DNA from: Abditibacterium sp.
GTDB taxonomy: Bacteria; Armatimonadota; Abditibacteriia; Abditibacteriales; Abditibacteriaceae
Assembly (NCBI GenBank): GCA_965199495.1
Contig: CBDASK010000003.1
Coordinates: 2,784,001 to 2,848,000 of the forward strand
Reading direction: 5' to 3'
Length of the DNA: 64,000 bases
Part shown: in pieces, positions 2,540 through 64,000 of the stretch
Position numbering within the stretch: position 1 is the first letter of the stretch
Layout: each line of letters begins with the position of its first letter
Position numbers and translations under genes: made by a program
Notes under the pieces: generated by a model
Databases searched by the model: none
Told to the model about the DNA's origin: nothing
Seen by the model: only the letters and a program-made list of their open reading frames with translations

Positions 2540-3871
2540 ATGACCAATCGCAGTGCAATGTCTCGCATGGAAGATTTCTTCTATCGCGAGCTGATGAAAT
2601 ATCTCTACCTCGCCGAAGAAAAGCGGCGCTGGAACCAATTCAAAGACGTGCCGTGGGATCAGGCCAACCCGAACTCGCACGAAACGCTCGCCATGTGCGT
2701 CGAGACGTTTTGTGCCGTCGAGATGTATCTGCCCGATTTCACCTCGAAATTATTAACCATGATTCGCCGCAGTCGCGGGCGCGCGTGGTTTCATATCAAC
2801 TGGGGTTACGAAGAATCGAAGCATTCTTTAACTTTGGAAGGTTGGCTGTTGGCGTCGGGCCATCGCACCGAAGAGCAACGCGAGGAAGTCGAGAAAGCGC
2901 TCGCCAATCAGGAGTGGGAACTGCCGTTCGATCATCCGCGCCAGATGGTTTGCTACACGATGGTGCAGGAATTGGCGACGTTCTGGAACTATCGTAACCT
3001 CGAAAAAATGGCGGGCAAGCAGCACGATATTGCCCTCGTCACGGCGCTGCGTTTAATTTCTGTGGACGAACGCGTTCACTATAACTTCTTCCGTAACATG
3101 GTCAAGGAGTGGATGAAGTGGGACGAAGCAGGCACGATTGCCGATTTGAAATACGTCTTCGATAACTTCACCATGCCGGGCAACTCGCAGATTCCCGGCT
3201 ATGACGCCGCCGCCAAAGTTCTGGCCAAAACCGGTATTTACGGCCCGCGCGAATATATCAAGTTGGTGAAAAACCCGATTTTGGAAGATTTGCGCATTGA
3301 CAAAGATTTCAAGAAAATCGAGGACGCCGAAGCCAAAGAGAACCGCGAAAAAGCGATTAAACAGCAGGAAGAAGACTCGCGCGAAAAAATCGCTCTCGGA
3401 GGCAGCCACGCCGTGGCTAAGGCCGACGCGCGCGCCGACGCCAAACATCCGTTTAACTCGAACGCTTTGAATAAAGTGTTGGAAAACAATAAACCGAACA
3501 ATCCGGGACGCGGCAAATGGGATTCGCGTCACGCGATTCCAACTTACGCCGACGGCAGCAAGCGTAGCGCGTTCTTGGATATGGTCGGCATCGAACCCGC
3601 CGAGCGCGTCGAAACCAGCACTTCGCTCATTTTGCTGGCGCAGGAATTCGAGAAATTGCCCGGTTCGCGCGGCATGGATAAATTGAACAATCCGCTCGAC
3701 CAAAAGCTGCTCGAAATCGGCGACGAACTCTCCAATAACGCGGGCGAATTGCGCAGCGAACGCGCGAAGATTAAAGAAGAACGCGAAATTACGCGCGCGA
3801 GCCGCAATAAAAACGACCGGTTGATGCAGAAGTATCAGGAAGGCGAAGAGAAACCGAACGAAGAAAAGTAA
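2540..3871 (+). CDS. Acyl-ACP desaturase (ferritin-like di-iron) with long charged C-terminal extension
   Basis: WGYEESKH, QELAT and DERVH iron-ligand motifs, F.MPG; start could be 2528, 2540 or 2558. Confidence 0.8.
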   Translation: MTNRSAMSRMEDFFYRELMKYLYLAEEKRRWNQFKDVPWDQANPNSHETLAMCVETFCAVEMYLPDFTSKLLTMIRRSRGRAWFHINWGYEESKHSLTLEGWLLASGHRTEEQREEVEKALANQEWELPFDHPRQMVCYTMVQELATFWNYRNLEKMAGKQHDIALVTALRLISVDERVHYNFFRNMVKEWMKWDEAGTIADLKYVFDNFTMPGNSQIPGYDAAAKVLAKTGIYGPREYIKLVKNPILEDLRIDKDFKKIEDAEAKENREKAIKQQEEDSREKIALGGSHAVAKADARADAKHPFNSNALNKVLENNKPNNPGRGKWDSRHAIPTYADGSKRSAFLDMVGIEPAERVETSTSLILLAQEFEKLPGSRGMDKLNNPLDQKLLEIGDELSNNAGELRSERAKIKEEREITRASRNKNDRLMQKYQEGEEKPNEEK

Positions 3872-3874
3872 AAG

Positions 3875-3910
3875 CAAAAAACCGCGCTCTGATTAGAGCG
3901 CGGTTTTTTG
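3875..3910. terminator. Bidirectional intrinsic terminator
   Basis: A6-CCGCGCTCT-gatt-AGAGCGCGG-T6 between convergent genes. Confidence 0.85.
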
Positions 3911-3928
3911 TTCCGATTTTGCAAATTT

Positions 3929-4471
3929 CTAACGGTTAGTTTTTTCGATATTTATGGGAATAAAACTACTGTTGGAAGTCAAAAGTATCTGATCCACTCG
4001 GATTCCCATTTCCAAATCGGTGAGCTTCATTACATTGATACCTTTATCACAATGAAAGCGGCCTCGACAATATTGCCAACTCCAAATGCCATAACTGGCT
4101 TGGTCTCCAAGAATTCTGGGACGACTCTCGTTAATAGAAACTTTGAAACTATTACTAAAGTTATTGATATATTTGATGCGCGTCCATAAATAGTAAGTGC
4201 CGGGCGTCTCGACGCGAAATTTATAGGTCGCTGAACCATCGTCGTGGTTGGCCACCCAAGGCATTTGTAAATATCCGTGCGACGGATTTTGCCATGGCTC
4301 TGCGATATTCTTTTTGGAAGAAATTTCAACTCTTTTCAGCGGCTTTTTTATCTGAGCCGCATTTTCTGCTTCCCAGCATATAACGATATTTGGAGCGGCA
4401 TAAACTTGCTTCGCGCAAGCAAATGAAATCAACAGCAATGGCGTTGCAACGTTTATTTTGTTCATCGTCAA
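3929..4471 (-). CDS. Hypothetical secreted protein, possibly a carbohydrate-binding beta-sandwich; AT-rich
   Basis: Signal-peptide-like N-terminus; WEAENA...GTYYLWTR...VDQILLT pattern. Confidence 0.6.
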   Translation of the reverse strand: MTMNKINVATPLLLISFACAKQVYAAPNIVICWEAENAAQIKKPLKRVEISSKKNIAEPWQNPSHGYLQMPWVANHDDGSATYKFRVETPGTYYLWTRIKYINNFSNSFKVSINESRPRILGDQASYGIWSWQYCRGRFHCDKGINVMKLTDLEMGIRVDQILLTSNSSFIPINIEKTNR

Positions 4472-4527: not shown

Positions 4528-5472
4528 TTATTGTTCAATATCGTTCGTTCGATAAATCGCCGCGCACAATTTCGCGTTGGTGAAATCCATCACAACGATA
4601 CCGAAATCACCGCGCGCGTTCGTTGCGAAAAATTGCGCTAAACGCGGATTAATCGCGCTCGCAACCGACGGAACATTGGGAATACCAAATAATCCCGCTT
4701 TGACGCCGCTCGCGAAATTCAGCGTGAGCGGCGGATTTACACCGGCTTGCGTTTGCTTTAGCAATTGCTCGATGGAATTCCATTTATCGTCGGTGTCAGT
4801 CACTTTATAAATATCTTGGACGCGCAAGTTTTCACGAACAAAAGTTTGATTATCCGGCCAGTTCGAGGCGTCAATACCCGTCGCCGTGGCTGCATTGAAG
4901 CGGCGCAACAATACGATTTTGCCGCGCGCTTGATTGAGCGTTGGAACTGTCGAACTCAGCAGCCACGGCGACGGATTGCGCGCGATATAATTATCGACAG
5001 TCGCAGCGAACGAGCGCATGTTGTTACGCGCTTCGTATTCTTCTTTGACGCTTAGAATTATGGTTTCGGAGGGATGAGCGCGCAGGAAATCGGTGGCGCT
5101 TTTGATAACGTCGGCGAAGTTTTGGTGTTGGTCAATCGGGCCGTGATAAATCGTGAAGGCGTTGTTTTGGTGACGGCAACGAATATCGAGAAAGCGAACG
5201 CCCGCGTCGAGTTGTTGGGCAATCGTCAGGTTTTGGCATTTGGCGGTGCCGCGAATCGGCTCGTAAAGCGCGGCGCTGTTGTGCGTGCCGGGGATAGAAA
5301 TTTGTGAAATCGGGATTTTGCCATTGAGCGATTTCATCCAGTCCGTGCCGGTGGCTGCACTGGCCACTGCGGGGATTCCGAAAACGGTCGGCGAAACGAT
5401 GACGCACAAACCAACAATTCCGCTTGCCAGCAACAACGCGCCAACTTTGACGAGCTTGTGTTTGGTTCTCAT
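4528..5472 (-). CDS. Phosphatidylinositol-specific phospholipase C (PI-PLC X domain)
   Basis: SIPGTHNS, QLDAGVRFLDIRCR, YHG, RGKIVLLRRF motifs; signal peptide from the ATG at 5472. Confidence 0.9.
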   Translation of the reverse strand: MRTKHKLVKVGALLLASGIVGLCVIVSPTVFGIPAVASAATGTDWMKSLNGKIPISQISIPGTHNSAALYEPIRGTAKCQNLTIAQQLDAGVRFLDIRCRHQNNAFTIYHGPIDQHQNFADVIKSATDFLRAHPSETIILSVKEEYEARNNMRSFAATVDNYIARNPSPWLLSSTVPTLNQARGKIVLLRRFNAATATGIDASNWPDNQTFVRENLRVQDIYKVTDTDDKWNSIEQLLKQTQAGVNPPLTLNFASGVKAGLFGIPNVPSVASAINPRLAQFFATNARGDFGIVVMDFTNAKLCAAIYRTNDIEQ

Positions 5473-5487
5473 CGCGATGAAAAACAC

Positions 5488-5515: not shown

Positions 5516-5520
5516 CAGGT

Positions 5521-7140: not shown

Positions 7141-7554
7141 TTAGCGAATGAAAAGCGCTTTGACCAGAGCGGCGTCGTGAAGCGGAGTAATCTCGTGTTT
7201 GTCGGCGGTGACAAATTCGGCATTCAGGCGGCGCGCCAGAGCCACGCCGAGCGCGTCGCCCAGCGGCAACGACGCGCCCGCGATGCGGCGCGCGGCGATG
7301 AGCGCACCGGCGTCGCGCCAGAATTCGCCATCCATGTCGGAGCGTTCGATGACGCCCGCATCTAACAGTTTATCTATGGAGATTTGAGCTTGAGTTTCGC
7401 CGTCTCTGCGCCACATAATGTGAAATACTTCGCAAAGATTGGCCGAATGGATATACAAAGGAATGCTCGTATCGGCGAATAGGTCTGCGACAACAGTAGC
7501 TCCCGGTTCATCTTTTAGAAAAGCGACTACGGCTGACGAATCGAGAACGCTCAC
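7141..7554 (-). CDS. PIN-domain (VapC-like) toxin
   Basis: VLDSSAVVA, NLCEV, LPLGD, VTAD acidic PIN motifs; overlaps upstream gene by 4 nt (GTGA). Confidence 0.85.
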   Translation of the reverse strand: MSVLDSSAVVAFLKDEPGATVVADLFADTSIPLYIHSANLCEVFHIMWRRDGETQAQISIDKLLDAGVIERSDMDGEFWRDAGALIAARRIAGASLPLGDALGVALARRLNAEFVTADKHEITPLHDAALVKALFIR

Positions 7555-7866: not shown

Positions 7867-9984
7867 CTATTCCTTGAATGTATCGAAATAATCCTTCACC
7901 GGCTGCTTATACGCGGGCGGCACGGAATCGCGCGAAACGGCGTCTTCGGCGTCCTTTTTATAACTTTGTCCGACATCATAAAGCGGCGTGCTGCTCTGGC
8001 CGCCTTTGCCTTCGCCTTTGGTCGGCAGTTGCTCGACTTCGCCGCTGCCGCCCCATTTGCCTTTGATTTTCGACAATTTCTTCTGCGTCGCCGTCAGTTG
8101 ATTCGTCCACGCATCTTCGTAGCGCCGTTTGTCGCCAGTGCGCGCGCTCTTCGATTTCGAGACGCCGCCGCCACTTTGCACGCCCTGCGCATGGTTGCGT
8201 GGCCCCAGTCCGGCGCCGCCGTCGCTAAACCCGTAAGGATCGGTCGCTTTCAAGTCTTTGCCGGGCGTGACCATGTTGCCCATTTCGCTTTTGCTACCGA
8301 AAGTTCGTCCGCCCGCACTGTTGCCACCGTTCATATTGCCGTTGCCGTTGGCGCCGTTTTCGGCTTGTCGCAGTTTGTCGAGCATCTCTTTCATGTTGCC
8401 CGAACCGCCGCCCCGGCCCTGACGCAGACCGTTGGCCATATCGCGCATCGCGCCCGATGCGCCACTTTGACCCTGTTGCCCTTGTTGTCCCTGTTGCGAT
8501 TGCCCGCCACTGCCTTGCTCGCCCTGTTTGCCCTGACCCTGCGGACTTTGGCCTTTCTGTCCCTGCTGCGATTGTCCCTGTTTGCCATTTTGCTGCGTGC
8601 CCTGCTGACCCTGTTGCGATTGGCCTTGCTTGCCGTCTTTTTGCTGTCCACCCTGCTGCCCGTTTTGTTGTTGCTGGCCCTCTTTACCGTCCTGTTTTTG
8701 CTGGCCGTTTTGGCCCTGTTGCCCCTGCTGACCATCTTTCTTCTGACCTTCCGGCGTCTGCTTCTGGCCGTCTTGCCCACTATTTTGCTCGCCCGGTTTT
8801 TGGCCCTGTTGTTCCTGACGCAATTGGTTAGCGGCGTCTTTCAATTGTTGCGCCGCGTCTTTATTAGCCTGACCGCCGCGCGATTCCAAATCTTTGGCGA
8901 CTTTATCCAAATCCGAGGCGATGTCTTTTTTCTCCTGTTGCCCGACCTGGCCTTTATCCAAACGATCCGCCAATTTGTCCAACTCTTTGGCGGCTTCATC
9001 GTATTTATTGTCCTGCAAATCTTGCTGGACTTTGCGCCCGACTTCCGATTGCAACGGCGTCTGTTTCAGCGCTTCTGGAATTTGCGGCATCGAGCCGCTT
9101 TTGCCCTGATTGCCGGGTTTGGACGAATCTTCCAGTTTCTTCTTGAGTTCGCCGATTTCGGTCAGCGCCGCGCGTTTGGTCATGCGCCCGCGCGCCATCT
9201 TTTTGCCCAATTTATCTAATTTGGCGTTGAGCGCCTTGGCTTCCTCTTCTTTGGGTTTTTCGTCTTTGCGAATTTCCTTGGAAACCGCGACCAATTTTTC
9301 GCCCTCTTTCATAATCGCGACGCGCTCTTTCTTTTGCGCCGCCGTCATCAAAATCGGGTTGTCGGGCAAAAACAGCGCGCCGACAAACGCGAGCGAAAGC
9401 GCCGTCAAAATCTGCGCGCGGCGGTCGAAGCGAAACGGATAAACCCGGCGCGGATCGAGCGATGCCGCGCGCGTGGTTGCATCGCCGACCAAGGCCGGAA
9501 CCAGATTCGTCGCGGGCATCGCGTGTCCGCTCGTGGTGACTGTCTGCGGCAACAACGCGCTTTTGACGCGCCCCAATCGCGAATTACCGGCTTGGACGCG
9601 TTGCGTTTGCCGAATCTCTTCGGGCGCCACAAACGAAAGCGCCGACGACAAACGGTCGTCGAGTTTCAAGGTGTTATCGGCATCTCGCGCGGCGGCGAAG
9701 TTGCCGCGCCGCGCCAAAAAGCCGTTGCGCGCGCCCCACAACAGACAAACGCCGATCATCGCGGCGGGCGCCCAAACCGGGCCATCGGGAATAATATGAA
9801 ACTTATAAAGCGCCACCGACGCAGCAGCCACGGCGACGCCGGGGATGGCGGCACCCACCAAAGCGCGCGTCATTTGTTGCGCGTTGCGGCGGCGCGCCAG
9901 AGCGCTCAGTTTGCTTTGCAAAACCGGCGCGTTTTGCGCGGGCGTTGCGTTTACGGAATCGCGGGGAATATCAGCGGTGGCCAT
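7867..9984 (-). CDS. Membrane-anchored coiled-coil protein with Gln/Gly-rich low-complexity region (MoxR-cluster associated)
   Basis: N-terminal TM segments, LDDRLSSAL, QQGQ repeats, C-terminal VPPAYKQPVKDYF. Confidence 0.75.
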   Translation of the reverse strand: MATADIPRDSVNATPAQNAPVLQSKLSALARRRNAQQMTRALVGAAIPGVAVAAASVALYKFHIIPDGPVWAPAAMIGVCLLWGARNGFLARRGNFAAARDADNTLKLDDRLSSALSFVAPEEIRQTQRVQAGNSRLGRVKSALLPQTVTTSGHAMPATNLVPALVGDATTRAASLDPRRVYPFRFDRRAQILTALSLAFVGALFLPDNPILMTAAQKKERVAIMKEGEKLVAVSKEIRKDEKPKEEEAKALNAKLDKLGKKMARGRMTKRAALTEIGELKKKLEDSSKPGNQGKSGSMPQIPEALKQTPLQSEVGRKVQQDLQDNKYDEAAKELDKLADRLDKGQVGQQEKKDIASDLDKVAKDLESRGGQANKDAAQQLKDAANQLRQEQQGQKPGEQNSGQDGQKQTPEGQKKDGQQGQQGQNGQQKQDGKEGQQQQNGQQGGQQKDGKQGQSQQGQQGTQQNGKQGQSQQGQKGQSPQGQGKQGEQGSGGQSQQGQQGQQGQSGASGAMRDMANGLRQGRGGGSGNMKEMLDKLRQAENGANGNGNMNGGNSAGGRTFGSKSEMGNMVTPGKDLKATDPYGFSDGGAGLGPRNHAQGVQSGGGVSKSKSARTGDKRRYEDAWTNQLTATQKKLSKIKGKWGGSGEVEQLPTKGEGKGGQSSTPLYDVGQSYKKDAEDAVSRDSVPPAYKQPVKDYFDTFKE

Positions 9985-10349: not shown

Positions 10350-11135
10350 ATGCGTTATCTTCGACTTTACCGCGCTTTCGCGCTCAACTGTTTGGCGCGC
10401 ACGATGGAATTTCGCGCGCAGTTTTTCGCGGGCATCATCGGTTACGCGATTTGGACGGGCGTTTCCTTAGTTTTTATCGGCGTCGTCTTCGGCCAAGTCG
10501 GCGCCGTCAAAGGTTGGACGCGCGACCAAATGTGGGTGCTTTACGGCACTTACGTGGTTCTCGAATCGGCCTGTTACGGCGTTTTGGGGCCAAATATGTT
10601 TCGCTTTTCCGGCCTGATTCAAGATGGCGGTTTGGATTTAATTTTGATTAAACCGGTCAACGTCCAATTCTTCGTTTCGACGCGCTATCTCGATCTCAAC
10701 GGCTGCCTCAATTCGGTGATGGGATTCGCCCTCATCGGCATCGGATTAAACCGTCTGGGCGAATTGCCCAATCCGCTCGCGTGGGCGGCGTGGCTGCTGT
10801 TGCTGGTGTGCGGATTTTGCATGGCCTACGCGTTTTGGTTTTGCTGCGTCACTGTCGCGATTTGGGCGGTCAAACTCGAAGGCATCGCCGTGATTTTTGA
10901 CCCGATGATGCAAATGGCGCGCTTTCCCATCCAAATTTATCCGGGCCGCATTCTGACCTTTCTCACCATCGGCTTGCCCGTCGCGTTTCTGACGACGTTT
11001 CCGACGCAAGCGTTATTGGGCCAAATCGGTTGGGAAACCTTGGTCGCCGCCGTCGCGATGGCGGCGACGTTGTTGACGATTTCGCGTTTGTTTTTCAATT
11101 TCGCGTTGCGCAGTTATGGCTCGGCCAGTTCTTGA
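10350..11135 (+). CDS. ABC-2 type transporter permease (DUF990-like)
   Basis: GWT, IQDGGLDLILIKPVN, RFPIQIY, C-terminal YGSASS; ATG at 10350 preferred over the start inside the palindrome. Confidence 0.85.
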   Translation: MRYLRLYRAFALNCLARTMEFRAQFFAGIIGYAIWTGVSLVFIGVVFGQVGAVKGWTRDQMWVLYGTYVVLESACYGVLGPNMFRFSGLIQDGGLDLILIKPVNVQFFVSTRYLDLNGCLNSVMGFALIGIGLNRLGELPNPLAWAAWLLLLVCGFCMAYAFWFCCVTVAIWAVKLEGIAVIFDPMMQMARFPIQIYPGRILTFLTIGLPVAFLTTFPTQALLGQIGWETLVAAVAMAATLLTISRLFFNFALRSYGSASS

Positions 11136-11290: not shown

Positions 11291-12856
11291 TTTTTCCGCG
11301 CCCAGATACGAACGCACTTGCTGTTCCTCGAACGCGGCATAAGCCTCGTCATCGCGCGTGACGAAGGAGACGATGATTCCGACGGCAAAGGCCAGCGACA
11401 TCGAGATAATCGTCGGATTCTTCAGCGAAACCGGTGGTGCGCTCGTCATATGAAACACATCTTTCCACACCGTCGGCGATAAAACGATCAAAACGACGGC
11501 GCTGACCAAACCGGTGATCATGCTGGCGACGGCGCCTTGCGTGGTGAGTTTGCGCCACAAAACCGACATCAACAGCGCCGGGAAATTGGCCGAGGCCGCG
11601 ACGGCAAACGCCAATCCGACCATGAACGCGACGTTGACGCTCTTGAACAAAAAGCCCATCACGACGGCGATGAGACCCAACCCCACGGTCGCGATTTTGG
11701 CGACTTTGACTTCGGTTTTTTCGTCCGATTGACCGTTGCGCACGACGCCCGCATACAAATCGTGCGAAATTGCCGACGCGCCCGCCAATGTCAAACCGGC
11801 CACAACCGCCAAAATTGTGGCGAACGCGACGGCGGTTAAAAATCCCAGAAACGGCCCGCCGCCCAGAATCTCGGCCAACAAAGGCGCCGCCATGTTGCTG
11901 CTGAATCCACCTTCGGCTTCCTTTTTGAGCAAGTTCGCACCGACCAGAGCCGCCGCGCCGTAACCGATGGTGAACGTCAAAATGTAAAAATAACCGATGA
12001 AACCGGTGGCGACAAACACCGATTTGCGCGCCTCGCGCGCGTCGGGCACGGTGTAAAAGCGCATCAAAATATGCGGCAATCCAGCGGTGCCAAACATCAA
12101 ACCGAGCGATAGTGAAATCAAGTCAATCGGCGACGTGGCTACGGCCTCGGTCGCGCCCGGTTTTAAGAGTGCCTCACCGTTGGGAAGAGCAGCCACGGCG
12201 CTAAACAGGTTGCCGTAACTCCAATTGAAATGGTTCAAAACTAAGGCAGTTAAAAGCGTTGCACCCGCGATGAGCAGAATCGCTTTGATGATTTGAACCC
12301 ATGTCGTCGCCAGCATGCCGCCGAACAGAACGTAGGCGATCATCAGAAAACCGACGGCGATGAGCGCGGTCTCGTAGGATAAGCCGAACATCAATTTGAT
12401 GAGCGAACCGGCGCCAACCATCTGCGCGGTCAGATAGAAAATCACTGTGACAATTGAGCCAATCGCCGCCATCGTTTTAATCGGCTTCTGTTGCAGACGA
12501 TAGGCGACCACATCAGCGAAGGTATATTTGCCCAGATTGCGCAACGGCTCGGCAATCAAAAACATCACGACCGGCCAGCCGACCAGATAACCGACGCTAT
12601 AAATTAATCCGTTATAACCGCCCGTCGCGACGAGGCCAGCGATGCCTAAAAACGAGGCGGCGCTCATGAAATCGCCCGCCAGCGCGAGTCCGTTTTGGAA
12701 ACCGGAAATGCCGCCGCCCGCCGCGTAAAATTCGGCAGCCGTCTTGGTTTTGCGCGCGGCCCAGTAGGTGATGCCGAGCGTAATGGCGATGAAAAAAAGA
12801 AAAAATGCGATGGCAACCGGTGAAAGTTGGCCAAGCTCCGTTTTAGTTTGAGGCAT
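11288..12856 (-). CDS. actP: Cation/acetate symporter (sodium:solute symporter family)
   Basis: [38 protein letters not shown]485 gene upstream. Confidence 0.9.
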
Positions 12857-39605: not shown

Positions 39606-39684
39606 AATTGAAACTTTTTGTGTTACATATTAGACGAATGAATGGGGATTTGGCTCCGATTGTAGCAGCCACGCCGACAGGCGA

Positions 39685-52415: not shown

Positions 52416-53039
52416 TTAACCTTCGCGTTTGATCGAGCAACCGAATGCAGCCACGTCGGCTTGCTTCACGGGTTGGCCCGCCAAAACTTCGTCCAGAGCC
52501 GCCGCGAGGGGACGCGCTTTGATTTTGGTTTCGTTTTGCGAATTATCAATTTGGCCGTGATAAACCAAATCGCCTTTGGCGTTGACGACATAGGTTTCAG
52601 GTGTAACTTTGGCGTCGAATTTATCGGCGATAACGTTGCCCTTGTCTTTTAATACCGGGAAAGTAAAGCCGTGTTCTTTGGAATGACTGGCGATTTCGGC
52701 GGTGCTTTCTTCTTTGTTGGCGTTGATGGCAACAAAACGCACGCCTTTGGCGCTGTAATTTTTGGCGAGTTTTTCCATGCGTTCGTTGTAGGCGTTGGAA
52801 ACCGGGCACTGCGTCGAAACGAACATGATCACGGTCGCTTTCGATTTGTTCCAGTTGCCGACTTCGACCGATTTTCCGGCGCTATTGGGCAGCGAAAACG
52901 CGGCGACTTTGGTCATCGGAGTTGGTGCTTTGGCTGCATCGGCGAGCGCGGCGGTTTCAAGTGTTGAGTTTTGCGTGGCGTAGCCGACGAGGCCCACAGC
53001 CAACAGGCCGAGGGGGGAGAGTGAAAGGAATTTTTTCAT
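52416..53039 (-). CDS. Thioredoxin-fold redoxin (AhpC/TSA-like), exported
   Basis: CPVS, TPE, YHGQID, GCSIK. Confidence 0.85.
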   Translation of the reverse strand: MKKFLSLSPLGLLAVGLVGYATQNSTLETAALADAAKAPTPMTKVAAFSLPNSAGKSVEVGNWNKSKATVIMFVSTQCPVSNAYNERMEKLAKNYSAKGVRFVAINANKEESTAEIASHSKEHGFTFPVLKDKGNVIADKFDAKVTPETYVVNAKGDLVYHGQIDNSQNETKIKARPLAAALDEVLAGQPVKQADVAAFGCSIKREG

Positions 53040-53144: not shown

Positions 53145-53609
53145 GTGCAATTTCCCCCCGAAGCTGTGCGCGAAATCGCGCAGTTGCTTTCTCAGTCCGA
53201 TTTGGGCGAAGTCTCGTTCGAGGCTGGCCAAGGTCAACGCCTGACCCTCAAGCGCCAGCCCAAGTTCGTCGCCGTGGCTGCTCCCGCCGCGCCAGTCGCA
53301 GAAAACAGCGCCCCCGCCGCAATAGTTCCCGAAACCGATGCCACACCCGCAACCGAAGCCGCTACATCCGAAGCAATTTTGATTGCGTCGCCGTGCGTCG
53401 GCGTATTTCACGCGGCCAAAATTGCTGTCGAAGTTGGCTCGCCCGTCAAAGCCAAACAGGTCATTGGTCAGGTCGAATCGCTCAAAGTGCCCAACGATTT
53501 GGTCGCGCCCGCAACGGGCGTGGTTTCGCAGATGTGGGTCAGCGACGGGCAGGGCGTCGAGTGGGGACAACCGCTCTTTGAAATTGCGCCCGGCGAGGCA
53601 CCCGCTTAA
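53145..53609 (+). CDS. accB: Biotin carboxyl carrier-like protein
   Basis: Ala/Pro linker, SPCVGVF, VEWGQPLF; upstream of accC; atypical ESLKV biotinylation motif. Confidence 0.75.
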   Translation: MQFPPEAVREIAQLLSQSDLGEVSFEAGQGQRLTLKRQPKFVAVAAPAAPVAENSAPAAIVPETDATPATEAATSEAILIASPCVGVFHAAKIAVEVGSPVKAKQVIGQVESLKVPNDLVAPATGVVSQMWVSDGQGVEWGQPLFEIAPGEAPA

Positions 53610-60510: not shown

Positions 60511-61464
60511 ATGATCGTTTCAACCCAAGAACTCTTCAAGCAAGCTTATGGCAAATACGCCATTGGCGCCTACAACATCAACAACCTCGAACAGACAATG
60601 GGCCTTTTTCAGGGCTGCATTGACTCGCAAGCCCCGTTCATCATCCAGATTTCCAAGGGCGCGCGCAGTTTCACCGACAAAGAGATGCTCGAAGGCATCA
60701 TCCGCAGCGCCGAGAAAGTGTTCCCCGAAGCCGTCTTCGCCGTTCACCTCGATCACGGCGACGAGCAGACCTGCTACGACTGCATTGATTCGGGCTTTTA
60801 TTCCAGCGTGATGATTGACGCCTCGCACGATCCGTTCGAGGAGAACGTCGCCATCACCAAGCGCGTCGTTGACCGCGCGCACGCCCGCGGCATTTCGGTC
60901 GAAGCCGAAATCGGCCAACTGGGCGGCGTCGAAGAGGATATTCAAGTGGACGAGAAGAACGCCAACCTGACCGATCCCGACGAAGCCGAAGCGTTCGTCA
61001 AACAGTCCGGCTGCGACTCGCTCGCCGTGGCTATCGGCACCTCGCACGGCGCCTACAAGTTTTCCGGCGGCCAGGGCTTGCACTTCAACCGCATCGAGGA
61101 AATCGCCAAGCGCATGCCCGGCTTCCCGCTCGTGATGCACGGTTCGAGCAGCGTGCCCCAAGAAGAAGTGCGTCGCATCAATGCGGCGGGCGGCAAATTG
61201 GCCGAGGGCGCCAAAGGCGTGGACGAGAACGAGTATTTGCCCGCCGCCAAACTGGGCGTCACCAAAGTCAACGTGGACACCGATGGCCGTCTGGTGTGGA
61301 CGCGCGTTCACCGCGAATACTTCAAAGAACATCCCGAAGGCTTCGATTTGCGCGCGCCGGGCAAAATTTTCATCCAAGCCTACGCCGATTTCATCGCCAA
61401 TAAGAACAAAATGCTGGGCAGTGCCGGAACGCTCTCCGACATTCGCAAAGCGTTGGGCGCGTAA
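60511..61464 (+). CDS. fba: Class II fructose-bisphosphate aldolase
   Basis: HLDHG, SSVMIDAS, VEAEIG, AIGTSHGAYK, HGSS, KVNVDTD. Confidence 0.95.
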   Translation: MIVSTQELFKQAYGKYAIGAYNINNLEQTMGLFQGCIDSQAPFIIQISKGARSFTDKEMLEGIIRSAEKVFPEAVFAVHLDHGDEQTCYDCIDSGFYSSVMIDASHDPFEENVAITKRVVDRAHARGISVEAEIGQLGGVEEDIQVDEKNANLTDPDEAEAFVKQSGCDSLAVAIGTSHGAYKFSGGQGLHFNRIEEIAKRMPGFPLVMHGSSSVPQEEVRRINAAGGKLAEGAKGVDENEYLPAAKLGVTKVNVDTDGRLVWTRVHREYFKEHPEGFDLRAPGKIFIQAYADFIANKNKMLGSAGTLSDIRKALGA

Positions 61465-61543: not shown

Positions 61544-62422
61544 TCACCGCAATGCGTCCGCGTAATCGCGCGCGAAGTCGGCGAAATTGCGCGGCGCGTG
61601 CCCGGTCACATCAGCCACGTCGGACGTGATCTGCGCGGCTTCGCTCTGGCTCCAGTGGGCGTATTCTTCCAACAGTCCGTCGGCCTGCCACGCGGGGAAG
61701 CCAGCGCCGACCAAACTTTGGCGCATTTCGGCGGGCGTGACGTTGACGTAGGTAATCTCGTGGCCCAAAGCCTGCGAAAGTTGCGCGGCCATTTCTCCGT
61801 GCGTCAGGGCTTGCGGCCCAGTGATGTCGTAAGTTTTGTTTTCGTGCCCCGCTTGCGTCAGTGCCAGAAACGCGATGTCCATGATGTCGCGAATATCCAC
61901 GATGCTGATTGCGCCTTCGCCCATCGGCGCCGGAAACATCCGCTTCGATTTAATCAGATCGGCAAAACCCAATACGCTCTGCATGAACAGGTTGGGCCGC
62001 AAAAAAGTGTGGGCGATTCCACTATTTTGAATCGCCTGTTCGACGCGGGCATGATAGCGCAAAAAGCGCGCGCTGGAATTGGTCGCGGCGTCGAGTTGCG
62101 ATAATTTAACGATGTGCGCGACGCCGCTCTGTCGCGCGATTTCTACGAAATCCAACTGTTGCTGCTGCGCGTCTTCGGTCGAATTAGAAAGCAAAAACGC
62201 TTTTTCGATGCCTTCGAGTGCGGCCTTCAAAGTTTCGGGTTTGCCAAAATCGCCTTCGACGATTTGTGTCGTGGGCGATTCGATGGCTCCGGCGTGGCTG
62301 GCCTTACGCGTCATGGCGCGCACGGGAATTTGGTGGGCGGTGAATCGTTGCATCAGTTCGGTGCCGTTGCTGCCCGTCGCGCCCGTTATCAGAATCGTTG
62401 GTTGAGAGGAATGATTTGCCAT
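61544..62422 (-). CDS. NmrA-like / atypical SDR NAD(P)-binding protein
   Basis: ITGATGSNG, LRPNLFMQ, DIRDI, TGP. Confidence 0.88.
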   Translation of the reverse strand: MANHSSQPTILITGATGSNGTELMQRFTAHQIPVRAMTRKASHAGAIESPTTQIVEGDFGKPETLKAALEGIEKAFLLSNSTEDAQQQQLDFVEIARQSGVAHIVKLSQLDAATNSSARFLRYHARVEQAIQNSGIAHTFLRPNLFMQSVLGFADLIKSKRMFPAPMGEGAISIVDIRDIMDIAFLALTQAGHENKTYDITGPQALTHGEMAAQLSQALGHEITYVNVTPAEMRQSLVGAGFPAWQADGLLEEYAHWSQSEAAQITSDVADVTGHAPRNFADFARDYADALR

Positions 62423-62497
62423 TGTTTTCTCCGGCGTAAAATTAGCGCCAGAAAACAGCATGGCAAAGATCAAATTATTCCGTAAGGAGGCACATTG

Positions 62498-62878
62498 ATG
62501 TCACTTAATAACTTGAAAGTCAGCGAACTAACTTTGGAAGAATGTATCAGCGTGCGCGAGATTTTAGATCGCGTTGGCGACCGGTGGAGCATTTACATCG
62601 TGGCGCAACTGCGCGAAGGCCCACAACGATTCAATCATCTCAAGCGCGTCATCGAGGGCATTTCGCAACGCATGCTGACGCTGACTTTACGCGGTCTGGA
62701 GCGCGATGGCCTGATTTCGCGCACCGTCTATCCCACCAAACCGCCGCAGGTCGAATATGCCCTGACGTCGCTCGGTGAATCTATGGCGCAAGCTCTCGCG
62801 GTTTTGCTGAACTGGGCCGACGAACATCGCTCCGAAATAACGCGCGCCCGCGCCGCTTACGACGAACGCGCGCTTTAA
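62498..62878 (+). CDS. HxlR family winged-helix regulator
   Basis: [40 protein letters not shown]; divergent from the NmrA-like gene. Confidence 0.92.
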
Positions 62879-62891
62879 ATCGCGCGCCATT

Positions 62892-64000
62892 TCATTTGCG
62901 CGAGGCCGTGCGAAGCGGATACATTTCTTCGAGCCAGACCATCACTTTTTGCAGCATCGGGAGGGGCATCGTCTGGCGCGATTGGCCGAAGGTTTTGACC
63001 ACGCGTTTGTTGGTTTCGCCCCACGTTTTCTCGAACAGCATCGCGTCAACGTGCTTGCAATAGGTTTGAATGGACTCGCGCAATTCGGCTTCCTGCTGCG
63101 AAGGCGTTAGAACCGGTTCGTTCGATGGTTCGGCGTTCTCAACTGTTTGCGGTTGTGGCCCGACGCGGCTCCAACGGCGGGTCAATCCCGCCGAACCGAC
63201 GGGCGTAATCGAGCGACGTTCGCCCGGTTCGAGCGGCGCGGCGCGTTCGATTTCTTCGATTTCGTCTTCTTCCAGGCGCTGCTTAATCGCGACCAATTGT
63301 TCGTCCTGCATGCGCGTGATGATGTCACACATCAAGCGGTCGTCGGGCACATAAACAAAGGCCATCTGCTCTTCCCACGGCCCGGCGGGCGCGTCGAATC
63401 GGGTGGCGCGCGCGATCATCTGCTCGATCCACGGCTTGCTGCGAATGTGCGTCAAGCACGCGATGTGCGTGACCGGCGGCACGTCCAAACCTTCGTAGGC
63501 CATCGCGACCGTGACCAAACAACCGAGCGCCATCGGGGTGTCTATCTCCTTAAATTTGGCGATATTCTTCGCCGCCAGCGCCGAGTCGTCCGACGTGGCT
63601 ATGGCGCACTTGATGCCGTTGCGTTGCAAATGCTCCAGATATTTTTTGGCGTCCTCGATGTTCGCCACGACCGCCAACATCTTGGCGCGCGGATGCCCCA
63701 TGCGATAGTGATTCCAGTGCCCGACGCATTCGTCCAACAGATGAAAACCGAACTCGGTTTTCAAAGCCGTATAAATCGCTTCGTTGGTGTCTTTGCCCGC
63801 CGTGCTGATGCGCGTGCCATAAGTTTTGCCGTCGTGCCCAATCCACGACGCCTCGCCGTCCATCAACTCGAAGTGAATCGGCGTAATCGCTTTGTCGAAC
63901 AAAGCGTTGGCGCGGCTGTATTGAATCGAAGCCGCGCCGCCGCGCCCGGATAAATCCACGATTTCGCCGTTCATGCTTTGCCCGTAAGGCAAAAACGCGA
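62892..64000 (-). CDS. 5'-truncated superfamily 2 (DEAD/DEAH, ResIII-like) helicase
   Basis: Motif V VAMAYEGLDVP and motif VI-like EQMIARATR; N-terminus lies outside the window. Confidence 0.75.
   Translation of the reverse strand, partial: AFLPYGQSMNGEIVDLSGRGGAASIQYSRANALFDKAITPIHFELMDGEASWIGHDGKTYGTRISTAGKDTNEAIYTALKTEFGFHLLDECVGHWNHYRMGHPRAKMLAVVANIEDAKKYLEHLQRNGIKCAIATSDDSALAAKNIAKFKEIDTPMALGCLVTVAMAYEGLDVPPVTHIACLTHIRSKPWIEQMIARATRFDAPAGPWEEQMAFVYVPDDRLMCDIITRMQDEQLVAIKQRLEEDEIEEIERAAPLEPGERRSITPVGSAGLTRRWSRVGPQPQTVENAEPSNEPVLTPSQQEAELRESIQTYCKHVDAMLFEKTWGETNKRVVKTFGQSRQTMPLPMLQKVMVWLEEMYPLRTASRK

What the first reader, a model, noticed from the sequence alone, without database searches (positions are those of the whole stretch)
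3404..63600. Dense dispersed 10-bp signature AGCCACGNCG: candidate undescribed DNA-uptake-type sequence
Seen in sequence (manual count). The exact 10-mer AGCCACGGCG occurs 22 times: + strand at 4961, 9826, 12191, 14003, 19418, 25125, 27723, 29325, 33077, 34996, 38592, 41181, 45647, 51939; - strand at 3409, 4882, 18992, 22966, 38155, 39429, 53270, 61023. Variants differing only at position 8 add 19 more: AGCCACGTCG at 12131, 22688, 27516, 43358, 43462, 51487, 52449, 61613, 63591; AGCCACGCCG at 3404, 7240, 22061, 33650, 36899, 39667, 44038, 46442, 62290; AGCCACGACG at 51016. That is about 41 copies, or one per ~1.6 kb, 23 on + and 18 on -. Many extend 5' as GC- or TAGC- (e.g. GTAGCAGCCACG next to the 19418, 34996 and 39667 copies). 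A zero-order estimate at ~57% GC gives ~0.3 expected for the exact 10-mer and ~1 for the degenerate form; CpG enrichment would raise this somewhat. Established: Neisseria DUS and Pasteurellaceae USS are 9-12 bp words at roughly this density on both strands inside genes, and cyanobacterial HIP1 behaves similarly but is palindromic. Inference: this non-palindromic word is a lineage-specific signal for self-DNA uptake, or a protein-binding or methylation-driven site. I do not recognise it as described.
Basis: partly seen in the sequence, partly recalled or inferred. Interest (0 to 1): 0.92.

Follow-up and report, generated by a model that had tools for sequence, protein, structure and literature searches.

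The report
Uptake-sequence-like DNA word in Abditibacterium
A soil bacterium of a barely studied phylum writes the ten-letter DNA word AGCCACGNCG into its chromosome about every 1.6 kb, bending its own codon and protein choices to do so, in the manner of the DNA-uptake sequences by which Neisseria and Haemophilus recognise their own DNA.

Summary
The window holds 44 copies, against 0.9 in shuffles. Genome-wide, AGCCACGGCG is the commonest 10-mer (1,374 copies; 2,916 for AGCCACGNCG).

The excess survives three nulls: synonymous-codon shuffling (about 27x), a dicodon null (9-21x) and a null trained on intergenic DNA (about 37x). The word is equal on both strands and shows no replichore polarity.

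It is nearly absent from a co-assembled phage, a plasmid-like contig and integrated mobile islands. About 40% of all Ala-Val-Ala and Ala-Thr-Ala tripeptides are encoded by it. It is enriched in only 3 of 31 related genomes, and one of these carries a different dialect, mostly in intergenic hairpins.

A new clue is that copies on the same strand avoid each other up to about 0.6-0.8 kb, while copies on opposite strands do not. One of two informative USS-rich genomes that I sampled shows the same rule.

ComEC, ComEA, DprA, ComM, secretins and pilus ATPases are present. Vsr, RecBCD and AddAB were not detected.

Best reading (about 0.5): a third, independent DNA-uptake-type self-recognition word spread by biased recombination. 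Uptake itself is untested. This scan has noted similar words in other genomes before.

The parts
3404..3413 (+). AGCCACGCCG copy
   Evidence: gene 2528-3871(+), sense, S-H-A; overlaps the next copy as the palindrome AGCCACGCCGTGGCT
3409..3418 (-). AGCCACGGCG copy
   Evidence: antisense, A-V-A frame
4882..4891 (-). AGCCACGGCG copy
   Evidence: gene 4528-5502(-), sense, A-T-A frame
4961..4970 (+). AGCCACGGCG copy
   Evidence: same gene, antisense, P-W-L frame
7240..7249 (+). AGCCACGCCG copy
   Evidence: gene 7141-7554(-), antisense, G-V-A
9826..9835 (+). AGCCACGGCG copy
   Evidence: gene 7867-9984(-), antisense, A-V-A
10786..10795 (-).
   Evidence: gene 10293-11135(+), antisense, A-W-L
12131..12140 (-). 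AGCCACGTCG copy
   Evidence: gene 11288-12856(-), sense, A-T-S
12191..12200 (+). AGCCACGGCG copy
   Evidence: same gene, antisense, A-V-A
14003..14012 (+). AGCCACGGCG copy
   Evidence: gene 13397-14431(-), antisense, A-V-A
18992..19001 (-). AGCCACGGCG copy
   Evidence: gene 18650-19735(-), sense, A-T-A
19418..19427 (+). AGCCACGGCG copy
   Evidence: same gene, antisense, A-V-A
22061..22070 (-). AGCCACGCCG copy
   Evidence: gene 21590-22213(-), sense, A-T-P
22688..22697 (+). AGCCACGTCG copy
   Evidence: gene 22304-23251(+), sense, S-H-V
22966..22975 (-). AGCCACGGCG copy
   Evidence: same gene, antisense, A-V-A
25125..25134 (+). AGCCACGGCG copy
   Evidence: gene 24480-25184(-), antisense, A-V-A
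27516..27525 (-). AGCCACGTCG copy
   Evidence: gene 26890-27798(+), antisense, D-V-A
27723..27732 (+). AGCCACGGCG copy
   Evidence: same gene, sense, A-T-A
29325..29334 (+). AGCCACGGCG copy
   Evidence: gene 28842-29756(-), antisense, A-V-A
33077..33086 (+). AGCCACGGCG copy
   Evidence: gene 32525-33616(-), antisense, A-V-A
33650..33659 (-). AGCCACGCCG copy
   Evidence: outside my gene calls
34996..35005 (+). AGCCACGGCG copy
   Evidence: gene 33922-35493(-), antisense, A-V-A
36899..36908 (+). AGCCACGCCG copy
   Evidence: gene 35753-38380(+), sense, S-H-A
38155..38164 (-). AGCCACGGCG copy
   Evidence: same gene, antisense, A-V-A
38592..38601 (+). AGCCACGGCG copy
   Evidence: gene 38586-39605(-), antisense, A-V-A
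39429..39438 (-). AGCCACGGCG copy
   Evidence: same gene, sense, A-T-A
39667..39676 (+). AGCCACGCCG copy
   Evidence: outside my gene calls
41181..41190 (+). AGCCACGGCG copy
   Evidence: gene 40374-43916(-), antisense, A-V-A
41381..41390 (-).
   Evidence: same gene, sense, S-H-V
43358..43367 (-). AGCCACGTCG copy
   Evidence: same gene, sense, S-H-V
43462..43471 (+). AGCCACGTCG copy
   Evidence: same gene, antisense, T-W-L
44038..44047 (-). AGCCACGCCG copy
   Evidence: outside my gene calls (an ORF 44011-45015(-) is listed)
45217..45226 (-).
   Evidence: gene 45048-46583(+), antisense, A-W-L; kept in G011 and G004, absent in G006/G003/G012
45647..45656 (+). AGCCACGGCG copy
   Evidence: same gene, sense, A-T-A; kept in G011, not in G004
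46442..46451 (-). AGCCACGCCG copy
   Evidence: same gene, antisense, G-V-A; kept in G011 only
51016..51025 (+). AGCCACGACG copy (rare A at position 8)
   Evidence: gene 50236-51540(-), antisense, V-V-A; not a motif in G011
51487..51496 (-). AGCCACGTCG copy
   Evidence: same gene, sense, A-T-S; kept in G011
51939..51948 (+). AGCCACGGCG copy
   Evidence: gene 51834-52373(-), antisense, A-V-A; kept in G011
52449..52458 (+). AGCCACGTCG copy
   Evidence: gene 52416-53039(-), antisense, D-V-A
53270..53279 (-). AGCCACGGCG copy
   Evidence: gene 53121-53609(+), antisense, A-V-A; motif kept in G011 with another letter at position 8
61023..61032 (-). AGCCACGGCG copy
   Evidence: gene 60424-61464(+), antisense, A-V-A; G004, G006, G012 and G003 encode the same A-V-A with other codons
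61613..61622 (+). AGCCACGTCG copy
   Evidence: gene 61544-62473(-), antisense, D-V-A
62290..62299 (-). AGCCACGCCG copy
   Evidence: same gene, sense, S-H-A
63591..63600 (-). AGCCACGTCG copy
   Evidence: gene 62892-64517(-), sense, A-T-S; kept in G011, not in G004/G006/G003

Best explanation
AGCCACG-N-CG (N = G > C > T, rarely A; often preceded by C or GC) is a self-recognition word of the DNA-uptake-sequence type. The proposed mechanism has four steps. First, a sequence-specific component of the DNA-import/transformation pathway prefers DNA that carries the word. Second, fragments from conspecifics that carry it therefore recombine into the chromosome more often. Third, this bias (molecular drive) has written the word wherever it is tolerated. 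In genes that is mainly the two frames giving Ala-Thr-Ala and Ala-Val-Ala. In spacers it sits partly as hairpin pairs. Fourth, DNA that arrived recently (phage, plasmid-like contig, integrated islands) has not yet acquired it. The two strands are counted separately. A copy makes a second copy on the same strand within about 0.6 kb redundant, but has no effect on the other strand. I take this to mean that the word acts on one strand at a time, for example on the strand that is imported or integrated. SHOWN: the abundance, the nulls, the strand symmetry, the frame and proteome effects, the absence from mobile DNA, the clade restriction and dialect, the conservation, the per-strand spacing rule and its presence in one USS-rich genome, and the presence of competence genes. 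INFERRED: that uptake or transformation is the biased step, that recombination spreads the word, and that it is read on a single strand.
For: Abundance and nulls: the exact word is the top 10-mer genome-wide, and perfect words stand at 2801 against 97 expected under an order-3 null. The excess survives the synonymous-shuffle null, the dicodon null and a null trained on intergenic DNA only (96 vs 2.6). It acts at DNA level: sense and antisense copies are both enriched (598/674), sitting in different registers that give A-T-A and A-V-A. 527 of 1274 A-T-A and 637 of 1580 A-V-A tripeptides use the word's codons, against 92 and 19 expected, and VAA, AAT, AVA and ATA rank 2nd, 4th, 5th and 11th among over-represented tripeptides. 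No replichore polarity. Mobile DNA lacks it: 2 copies on the 64.6-kb phage contig and 1 on the 24.7-kb plasmid-like contig, against 0.617 per kb on the chromosome. The long motif-free gaps hold serine recombinases, relaxase/coupling protein, restriction and defence genes and a prophage. Clade restriction: the core CAGCCACG has 3091, 3503 and 2676 copies in G000, G004 and G011, and control levels in the 28 other relatives searched. G004 carries the dialect GACACCAGCCACGTCCTA, mostly as intergenic hairpins. Maintenance: 93 of 135 G000 sites are kept in G011 at 85% overall identity, against 34-36% for control 10-mers, with 42 and 24 lineage-specific sites. In more distant congeners the homologous codons are ordinary synonyms. 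Spacing: same-strand pairs reach 0.16, 0.27 and 0.36 of expectation at 0-200, 200-400 and 400-600 bp, while opposite-strand pairs stay at 1.0-1.15. With peptide availability controlled, 17 pairs are seen against 74.4 +/- 7.9, and 0 of 1000 shuffles are as low. The depletion also holds across gene boundaries. The same rule appears in a USS-rich genome: in G120 there are 15 same-strand pairs against 55.6 expected at 30-400 bp, 51 opposite-strand pairs against 55.6, and an excess of close inverted pairs. Competence genes present: ComEC, DprA, ComEA-type HHH, intact ComM/YifB, secretin matches at 8 places and T2SSE/pilus-ATPase matches at 8 places, two of them in one frame. Even spacing matched to conversion-tract size and inverted pairs in terminators are reported for DUS (PMC2397512, passages read).
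Against: No uptake or transformation experiment exists, and the library search found no paper linking Abditibacterium to competence (5 hits, none on the subject by title or abstract). The competence genes found are widespread in non-transformable bacteria (see the control lists) and ComEC is also present in the 8 non-enriched congeners scored, so they do not discriminate. No receptor was identified. Only 7.5% of exact copies are intergenic against 15.6% non-coding DNA, whereas a paper states that DUS/USS exceed expectation in non-coding DNA (PMC1939737, passage); the fold-enrichment is nevertheless the same in both compartments. A receptor that binds double-stranded DNA in either orientation does not by itself predict a per-strand spacing rule. 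The second USS-rich genome, G204 (denser), shows no same-strand depletion at 30-400 bp (56 vs 59.3) and only a deficit at 0-200 bp (17 vs 32). The third, G039, was too small to judge. The G004 form looks like a REP-type hairpin and could have spread by another route. The G011 replicate of the spacing rule (6 vs 24.9) is not independent, because most sites are shared by descent.
Confidence: 0.5

Rival explanations
1. Chi-like self tag. The word is read on one strand by a directional helicase-nuclease or other end-processing machine, and it protects or activates the cell's own DNA for recombination. Selection, or drive through recombination of linear DNA, then places one properly oriented copy per tract on each strand.
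For: Per-strand counting with saturation is what a directional, strand-specific reader predicts. The word is asymmetric and absent from the phage. That phage carries a Mu Gam-like end-protection gene and RecT.
Against: There is no co-orientation with replication in any twelfth of the chromosome. No RecC was found. Only one UvrD-family helicase, of 794 aa, is present. The two PDDEXK_1 hits are a 299-aa protein and a 1421-aa nuclease-SF1 helicase, not AddAB. The 29-fold excess and its effect on the proteome far exceed the roughly 6.7-fold excess tabulated for E. coli Chi (PMC1939737, table passage). The word changes within a genus, and G004 has an 18-nt hairpin form.
Confidence: 0.15
2. HIP1-like product of modification plus biased repair. 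A sequence-specific methyltransferase or other modifier marks the word, and a cognate mismatch or very-short-patch repair activity keeps converting near-matches into it.
For: The motif is sharp. One-off variants stand at 1.12x expectation against 28.8x for perfect copies, as if near-matches were converted. C5 methylases exist in G000. The abundance of HIP1 has been linked in print to a methyltransferase site (PMC1939737, table legend).
Against: A Vsr match above the family cut-off was found in only one of the three enriched genomes: G004 has it, G000 has only a 24.5-bit match below the 27-bit cut-off, and G011 has none at 87% completeness. C5 methylases occur in enriched and non-enriched congeners alike. 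The word is not palindromic. A repair bias acting on all resident DNA does not obviously predict same-strand interference over 0.6 kb. By the same null, the USS sample also has only a weak halo of one-off variants (1.8x), so sharpness is not diagnostic.
Confidence: 0.12
3. Selected binding-site array. A nucleoid or chromosome-organising protein specific to this clade binds the word, and selection maintains a regular series of sites.
For: The spread over the chromosome is even (30.9 +/- 7.0 copies per 50 kb). Fewer genes lack the word than a Poisson model expects (1801 vs 1911). Sites are conserved above background.
Against: Selection per site would have to override codon usage at thousands of places and change amino acids. 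A duplex-binding protein should not distinguish same-strand from opposite-strand neighbours. No candidate protein was found.
Confidence: 0.1
4. Footprint of a mobile short repeat (REP/RAYT-type). The core belongs to a hairpin element that multiplied, and the coding copies are secondary.
For: In G004 most copies are 18-22-bp inverted arms with variable loops in spacers. Y1 transposase genes are present in all five genomes searched. A different 150-bp palindromic repeat in G000 carries GCAGCCAC in its arms and flanks a Y1 transposase gene.
Against: In G000 92.5% of exact copies lie in genes, in frame, without insertions, and many arose by synonymous substitutions at homologous codons. The flanks carry almost no information. 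The G004 long form is rare in G000 (14 copies of CCAGCCACGTCC). The one G004 Y1 transposase locus that I read is not flanked by the hairpin.
Confidence: 0.05
5. Compositional or codon artefact of a CpG-rich, Ala-rich genome.
For: The genome is rich in CG-containing words and in alanine (11.5% of codons).
Against: The excess survives dinucleotide shuffles, an order-3 Markov null, synonymous-codon shuffles, a dicodon null and an intergenic-only null. Congeners of similar G+C lack it.
Confidence: 0.01

Closest known systems
Uptake signal sequences (USS) of Pasteurellaceae
   Same: A short asymmetric word about once per kb, equal on both strands, mostly inside genes in favoured frames, and reshaping peptides (abstract of PMC2817400 in the listing). 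Same-strand copies avoid each other while opposite-strand copies do not, and close inverted pairs are in excess, as I measured in the USS-rich genome G120. One-off variants are only weakly enriched by the same null (1.8x there, 1.12x here).
   Different: A different word, a different phylum, no AT-rich flanks seen, a longer interference range (about 0.6-0.8 kb against about 0.4 kb), uptake untested, and no ComN/PpdA-type receptor sought.
DNA uptake sequences (DUS) and their dialects in Neisseriaceae
   Same: A 10-12-nt word with clade-specific dialects sharing a core. Inverted pairs form hairpins behind genes (the G004 form; a few in G000). The word is absent from mobile elements, a property used in print to find ICEs (PMC7371117, abstract in the listing). 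Spacing is tied to tract length (PMC2397512).
   Different: No sequence similarity to any DUS dialect that I recall. The ComP receptor was not tested. In G000 only 7.5% of copies are intergenic. Enrichment is confined to three species of one genus.
Chi sites read by RecBCD/AddAB
   Same: An asymmetric word read on one strand; redundancy of a second copy in the same orientation; absent from phage.
   Different: No replication-linked skew, no RecBCD/AddAB detected, and a far stronger excess.
HIP1 (GCGATCGC) of cyanobacteria
   Same: A hyper-abundant word inside genes, lineage-specific, mechanism unsettled.
   Different: HIP1 is palindromic and tied to a methylase site. Here the word is asymmetric and no cognate modifier or Vsr tracks it.
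REP/REPIN elements with RAYT transposases
   Same: The G004 form is an intergenic hairpin repeat present at about one per 3-5 kb.
   Different: The G000/G011 form is a bare 10-mer inside reading frames, created by substitutions.

Membership tests
DNA uptake enhancing sequences (DUS/USS) | Short non-palindromic word at roughly one per kb, far above any compositional null | tested here: met
   2916 copies in 4.81 Mb. 28.8x an order-3 null, about 27x a synonymous-shuffle null, 9-21x a dicodon null.
DNA uptake enhancing sequences (DUS/USS) | [quoted passage not shown] | tested here: met
   681/693 overall. About equal in each of 12 bins and on both sides of the skew extremes.
DNA uptake enhancing sequences (DUS/USS) | Spacing more even than random | tested here: met
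   Same-strand gaps under 500 bp make up 3.6-3.8% against 14% expected. The rule is strand-specific, and the same holds in USS-rich G120 but not clearly in G204.
DNA uptake enhancing sequences (DUS/USS) | Scarce in recently acquired DNA | tested here: met
   Phage contig 2 copies per 64.6 kb and plasmid-like contig 1 per 24.7 kb. Twenty gaps over 9 kb against 11.2 expected, clustered on mobile islands.
DNA uptake enhancing sequences (DUS/USS) | Coding copies in favoured frames; proteome shaped by the word | tested here: met
   79% of exact copies fall in two frames. 41% of A-T-A and 40% of A-V-A tripeptides use the word, and these tripeptides are over-represented.
DNA uptake enhancing sequences (DUS/USS) | Clade-specific, with dialects among relatives | tested here: met
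   Enriched in 3 of 31 genomes. G004 has other flanks. The 400-kb samples of G006 and G012 show no dispersed word of their own.
DNA uptake enhancing sequences (DUS/USS) | Over-represented in non-coding DNA and in terminator-like inverted pairs | tested here: inconclusive
   G000: 7.5% intergenic against 15.6% non-coding, but equal fold-enrichment. Close inverted pairs are 2-3x expectation. G004: mostly intergenic hairpins.
DNA uptake enhancing sequences (DUS/USS) | Competence machinery encoded (type IV pilus/secretin, ComEA, ComEC, DprA) | tested here: met
   This is not discriminating, because ComEC (the only one of these genes searched in relatives) is also present in non-enriched congeners.
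DNA uptake enhancing sequences (DUS/USS) | Cognate DNA receptor (ComP in Neisseriaceae; ComN/PpdA proposed in Pasteurellaceae) | not tested
   No pilin survey was done. The proposal for Pasteurellaceae was seen only as an abstract (PMC12616744, listing).
DNA uptake enhancing sequences (DUS/USS) | Preferential uptake or transformation by DNA carrying the word | not testable with these tools
   Needs a culture and uptake assays.
DNA uptake enhancing sequences (DUS/USS) | Descent from the proteobacterial DUS or USS (same word, same families) | tested here: not met
   The nearest titled relatives are Abditibacteriota MAGs and the word is different. At most this is an independent analogue.
Chi / RecBCD-AddAB | Reader enzyme RecBCD, AddAB or AdnAB encoded | tested here: not met
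   RecC gives 0 matches. One UvrD-family helicase of 794 aa. The PDDEXK_1 hits are not AddAB-like. Genome completeness is 95%.
Chi / RecBCD-AddAB | Orientation skew with replication | tested here: not met
HIP1-type methylation/VSP-repair words | Palindromic word matching a methylase site, with a Vsr-type repair enzyme | tested here: not met
   The word is asymmetric. Only G004 has a Vsr match above the cut-off: G000 has a 24.5-bit match below the 27-bit cut-off and G011 has none. C5 methylases do not track the enrichment. Modification itself is not testable here.
REP/REPIN-RAYT | Intergenic palindromic units flanking and mobilised by a Y1 transposase | tested here: not met
   G000 word: 92.5% in genes, with no flank conservation. 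The G004 hairpin is inconclusive: it is intergenic but does not flank the one Y1 transposase locus read.

The most novel reading that the evidence does not exclude
The word is counted one strand at a time. Some step of DNA import or integration reads it on single-stranded DNA, or in one direction, over tracts of roughly 0.6 kb. The same hidden rule operates on at least one classical USS genome. This would make the Abditibacterium word the first uptake/recombination self-tag outside the Proteobacteria. It would also show that uptake sequences act, or are driven, at a strand-specific step that the receptor-on-duplex model does not describe.
Probability: 0.3. Interest if true: 0.9.

Novelty: new variant of a known kind. 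Interest (0 to 1): 0.8.

Why it matters
In the papers I read, DNA-uptake sequences are described only for two proteobacterial families (abstract of bioRxiv 10.1101/2025.10.24.684340; PMC1939737). An independent case in Abditibacteriota matters for three reasons.

First, it would suggest natural transformation with self-preference in a phylum that has almost no genetics.

Second, it offers a young system.

Third, it gives a practical marker: motif-free stretches delimit phage, islands and plasmids in these genomes.

The per-strand spacing rule, also seen in a USS genome, is a simple quantitative constraint. Any model of how such words are read and spread must explain it.

Tried and rejected
- **Vsr / very-short-patch repair.** Only G004 has a Vsr match above the family cut-off. 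G000 has a 24.5-bit match below the 27-bit cut-off and G011 has none.
- **C5 methylases.** They are present in 8 of 13 congeners with no link to enrichment.
- **RecBCD/AddAB as reader.** Not detected.
- **Replichore polarity (Chi/KOPS).** None.
- **Translation or RNA-level cause.** Rejected because both orientations are enriched in different registers.
- **Signal-peptide A-x-A origin.** Copies are spread along genes, with only a mild 5' excess for sense copies, and spacers are enriched equally.
- **G004 as an independent replicate of the spacing rule.** Uninformative, because its hairpins carry both orientations and sit between genes.
- **An apparent word in G006.** It is a CRISPR array.
- **Halo of one-off variants as a discriminator.** Dropped after the USS sample gave only 1.8x by the same null.
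- **Rfam.** No family in the window.
- **Plasmid collection.** No match to contig C2.
- **Literature.** The exact 10-mer occurs in 35 papers; the 20 listed show it in unrelated contexts by title and abstract, and I did not open them. The 7-mer as a word occurs in 0 papers. None of the 10 listed papers from the search on uptake sequence and Armatimonadota/Abditibacteriota holds the term 'uptake sequence'.
- **Not attempted.** I did not try to find the receptor, fold any protein or run complex prediction.

Full report
**1. Is the word there?**
Yes. AGCCACGNCG occurs 44 times in the window (23 +, 21 -). The 100 dinucleotide-preserving shuffles average 0.91 and none exceeds 3. The window is G000:C3:2784001-2848000 of a 4.81-Mb assembly of three contigs with 55.7% G+C.

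**2. Is it genome-wide?**
AGCCACGGCG is the single most frequent 10-mer of the genome, with 1374 copies (681/693 by strand), and its overlapping neighbours fill the top of the list. Position 8 takes G 1374, C 865, T 562 and A 115. Substitutions at positions 1-6 give words at 0.0 to 2.4 times an order-3 expectation, and those at positions 7, 9 and 10 give 1.8 to 5.2 times. Summed over the nine fixed positions, perfect words stand at 2801 against 97 expected (28.8x). All one-off variants together stand at 2441 against 2186 (1.12x). The hexamer AGCCAC is the most over-represented 6-mer under a maximal-order Markov model (6436 vs 3111). Flanks carry little information beyond C at -1 (68%), G at -2 (51%) and A at -3 (44%).

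**3. Codon and dicodon nulls.**
I called genes with a home-made codon-score caller, which gave 3637 genes and 84% coding; this is a caveat for all frame counts. Twenty shuffles of synonymous codons within each gene expect 24.3 +/- 4.3 sense and 23.0 +/- 5.4 antisense exact copies, against 598 and 674 observed. A first-order codon (dicodon) chain, whose counts already contain the word, expects 23.3 and 63.8 in the two main frames, against 490 and 598 observed. In DNA outside my gene calls, a null trained on that DNA alone expects 2.6, 2.5, 1.3 and 1.6 copies for G, C, T and A at position 8. The observed counts are 96, 66, 45 and 5. So the fold-excess is the same in genes and spacers. The lower share of intergenic copies (7.5% of exact copies against 15.6% non-coding DNA) goes with the lower G+C of spacers (48.7%).

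**4. The pressure is on DNA and it shapes proteins.**
Of the 1374 exact copies:
- 490 lie in the sense register A|GCC|ACG|GCG (Ala-Thr-Ala).
- 597 lie in the antisense register, read in the gene as C|GCC|GTG|GCT (Ala-Val-Ala).
- 184 lie in the other four registers.
- 103 are intergenic or partial.

These two registers differ on the DNA, so no single translational cause fits. Of 1274 A-T-A tripeptides, 527 are GCC ACG GCG against 92 expected from codon usage. Of 1580 A-V-A tripeptides, 637 are GCC GTG GCT against 19 expected, although GCT is a rare Ala codon (10%). VAA, AAT, AVA and ATA rank 2nd, 4th, 5th and 11th among all tripeptides by excess over a dipeptide model. Copies are spread along genes with only a mild 5' excess for sense copies. 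In the window the 44 copies split as 22 antisense A-V-A-type, 9 sense A-T-A-type, 6 sense S-H-x, 4 antisense x-W-L and 3 outside my gene calls.

**5. No polarity, even spread, absent from mobile DNA.**
Plus and minus copies are about equal in each of 12 chromosome bins and on both sides of the GC-skew extremes. Chromosomal density is 0.617 per kb. The 64.6-kb contig C2 has 2 copies and the 24.7-kb contig C1 has 1. C2 encodes terminase, head protease, major head protein, tape measure, tail proteins, RecT, a Gam-like protein and a ParB-like protein, so it is a tailed phage. C1 encodes an anti-restriction protein and a serine invertase.

On the chromosome, 20 gaps longer than 9 kb occur against 11.2 expected. 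They cluster at 415-582 kb, 1119-1257 kb and 4229-4268 kb. I scanned three stretches inside these clusters (415-455 kb, 1160-1240 kb and 4229-4269 kb). They hold five serine recombinases (three of them of the large type with a zinc ribbon), a coupling protein and a relaxase, an Eco57I-type methylase with a SNF2 helicase, Mrr, a pentapeptide-TIR gene, an error-prone polymerase cassette, phage capsid and portal genes, QueC/QueF and a TnpB.

**6. Taxon and relatives.**
The closest titled contigs to the window's biotin carboxylase are Abditibacteriota/Abditibacterium MAGs, at 75-80% amino-acid identity. Among 31 genomes (own, 12 congeners, 18 farther relatives), the exact 10-mer is enriched only in G000 (1374), G011 (1198 in 4.6 Mb) and G004 (304 in 5.0 Mb). 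The rest have 0-90 copies, similar to the reversed-word control. The core CAGCCACG has 3091, 2676 and 3503 copies in these three and control levels in the other 28. These three are also the most similar in DNA among the five congeners compared. Identity to the window is 67-91% in G011 and 69-90% in G004 (about 81-91% and 74-90% over the long gene-sized matches), against 66-86% in G006, G003 and G012.

**7. A dialect.**
In a 400-kb sample of G004, the core (318 copies against 60 expected) mostly sits in GACACCAGCCACGTCCTA. The copies I printed sit as two inverted arms of 18-22 bp around variable loops of about 5-20 nt (most 12-16 nt) in what look like spacers, several followed by T-rich runs. 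The NCG form is present but weaker there (67 copies per 400 kb). The long form is rare in G000 (14 copies of its 12-mer). The 400-kb samples of G006 and G012 have no excess of the core (64 vs 62 and 53 vs 62) and no other dispersed word. An apparent one in G006 is a CRISPR array.

**8. Maintenance and turnover.**
In 207 kb aligned between G011 and G000 at 85.0% identity, 93 sites carry the word in both, 42 only in G000 and 24 only in G011. So 69% and 79.5% of sites are kept. For control 10-mers scored on the same nine positions the figure is 33.8% (n = 198,200), or 36.5% when G+C-matched. Of the lineage-specific sites, 26 of 42 and 15 of 24 differ by one letter. The rest differ by 2-8 letters.

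In the window segment 44-64 kb, 8 of the 9 sites alignable in G011 keep the word, against 1 of 5 in G004. None of the 5 sites alignable in at least one of G006, G003 or G012 carries it there. At 61023, for example, all four other genomes encode the same A-V-A with other codons.

**9. The two strands are counted separately.**
On the chromosome, pairs of copies in the same orientation reach only 0.16, 0.27, 0.36, 0.63 and 0.81 of expectation at 0-200, 200-400, 400-600, 600-800 and 800-1000 bp, and about 1 beyond 1.4 kb. Pairs in opposite orientation stay at 1.0-1.15 throughout. They are in 2-3-fold excess only below 30 bp, where they overlap as near-palindromes or short hairpins.

The effect is not due to where suitable peptides lie. 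Among 2822 A-[TV]-A sites, word-bearing pairs 9-480 bp apart on the same strand number 17 against 74.4 +/- 7.9 in 1000 label shuffles, and none of the shuffles is as low. Opposite-strand pairs number 83 against 83.3 +/- 8.6. The effect also holds across gene boundaries. Between different genes or spacers there are 56 same-strand against 159 opposite-strand pairs at 30-600 bp, and within one gene 88 against 352. The G011 sample shows the same (6 vs 24.9 at 0-600 bp; opposite 25 vs 24.6), but most of its sites are shared by descent. The G004 sample is uninformative.

**10. Comparator: real uptake sequences.**
The letters were as printed and as I recall them. Fifteen genomes carry more than 1000 copies, and I sampled three of them.
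- **G120 (453-kb contig, 369 copies).** Same-strand pairs at 30-400 bp number 15 against 55.6 expected (Poisson P about 1e-10). Opposite-strand pairs number 51 against 55.6. Opposite pairs below 30 bp number 23 against 4.5.
- **G204 (146 kb, about twice as dense).** It shows no same-strand deficit at 30-400 bp (56 vs 59.3) and only one at 0-200 bp (17 vs 32).
- **G039 (48 kb).** Too small to judge.

By the same order-3 null, the G120 sample has perfect cores at 48x and one-off variants at 1.8x. So the spacing rule and the weak halo seen in G000 are shared with at least one true USS genome. That these genomes are Pasteurellaceae is my inference from the counts.

**11. Machinery.**
G000 encodes:
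- an 859-aa ComEC;
- DprA, as an equivalog above cut-off;
- a 361-aa protein with the ComEA helix-hairpin-helix region;
- a full-length ComM/YifB;
- secretin matches at eight places;
- T2SSE-family ATPase matches at eight places, two of them in one frame.

ComEC was found in all 10 genus genomes scored (G000, G004 and eight non-enriched congeners; G010-G012 were not drawn). These genes are therefore necessary but not discriminating. Only G004 has a Vsr match above the family cut-off; G000 has a 24.5-bit match below the 27-bit cut-off and G011 has none. C5 methylases occur in 8 of 13 congeners regardless of enrichment. RecC gives no match, there is a single UvrD-family helicase of 794 aa, and the two PDDEXK_1 hits are not AddAB-like.

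**12. Reading.**
A force acting on DNA has written a sharply defined asymmetric word into genes and spacers of three related species. It favours both orientations equally, ignores replication and transcription direction, and spares recently arrived DNA. It keeps the word twice as well as background and stops adding copies where the same strand already has one nearby. This is the profile of DNA-uptake sequences as described in print. Published features include the lack of orientation bias and the even spacing (PMC1939737, passages), spacing matched to conversion tracts and inverted pairs in terminators (PMC2397512, passages), and co-evolution with proteomes (PMC2817400, abstract only). It also matches what I measured in G120.

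I therefore commit, at about 0.5, to an uptake/transformation-linked self-recognition word spread by molecular drive, read or driven one strand at a time. The main rivals are a Chi-like tag for an unknown directional enzyme (0.15), a modification-plus-biased-repair word like HIP1 (0.12) and a selected binding-site array (0.1). It is not a member of the DUS or USS families by descent.

**13. Novelty and prior notes.**
Library searches found no paper with the 7-mer as a word. The 20 papers listed for the 10-mer show it in unrelated contexts by title and abstract, and I did not open them. No paper links Abditibacterium to competence. No listed paper joins uptake sequences with Armatimonadota or Abditibacteriota. 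A 2025 preprint treats such sequences as a feature of Neisseriaceae and Pasteurellaceae (abstract and passages read).

This scan has itself noted similar hyper-abundant words in other genomes: giant viruses, phages, a spirochaete group and a betaproteobacterial group. One of those notes reports an evenly spaced series on each strand. These are unchecked notes and I did not use them as evidence. Supplementary files were not consulted.

Noticed in passing
window 51606-51762: A palindromic repeat of about 150 bp whose arms contain GCAGCCACAAATAAG. It matches 17 rounded positions (about a dozen loci) in G000 and many more in G004 and G011. Copies flank a Y1 transposase gene at G000:C3:3721491-3721820 and at G004:C8:313906-314235, so it looks like a REPIN/RAYT system.
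   Followed up: partly
window 50148-50234: A second palindromic repeat of 88 bp, lying between two genes. It has 10 loci in G000 and dozens of matches in G011 and G004.
   Followed up: partly
window 25226-26816: An IS605-family element: a TnpB (OrfB_IS605 plus Cas12f1-like TNB domain) on the minus strand at 25226-26371, and Y1 transposase matches at about 26438-26816 on the plus strand. My codon-based caller did not call the TnpB gene, which fits foreign codon usage.
   Followed up: no
G000:C3:2766475-2775000 (9-17 kb before the window): A CRISPR array of 131 repeats with a period of about 65 bp. It coincides with a motif-free gap at 2764872-2775199.
   Followed up: partly
G000:C3:1165794-1255883: About 88 kb of motif-poor mobile DNA lies between a 174-aa C-terminal remnant of comM/yifB and an intact 514-aa comM. 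It holds two large serine recombinases, an Eco57I-type methylase with a SNF2 helicase, and an error-prone polymerase cassette. This looks like tandem elements integrated into the 3' end of this competence-linked gene.
   Followed up: partly
G000 contig C2 (L002, L217-L219): The 64.6-kb contig is a tailed phage with a 2400-aa tape measure, RecT, a Mu Gam-like end-protection protein, a ParB-like protein and two pyrophosphatase-like genes. It is almost free of the host word.
   Followed up: partly
whole genome (word neighbours): Two neighbours of the word are nearly absent. AGCCGCGGCG has 2 copies against 96.6 expected and AGCCATGGCG has 1 against 16.9. They contain the palindromes CCGCGG and CCATGG, which suggests restriction-site avoidance.
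   Followed up: no
window 3404-3418: A plus and a minus copy overlap to form the 15-bp palindrome AGCCACGCCGTGGCT inside gene 2528-3871. Genome-wide, such close inverted pairs are 2-3 times more frequent than expected.
   Followed up: partly
G004:C5:156-2294: The only Vsr match above the family cut-off in the genus sample sits next to a C5 methylase on a small G004 contig.
   Followed up: no
window 40374-43916 (-): A 1180-aa protein joins a GH18 chitinase-like domain, a polysaccharide deacetylase and a family-2 glycosyltransferase.
   Followed up: no
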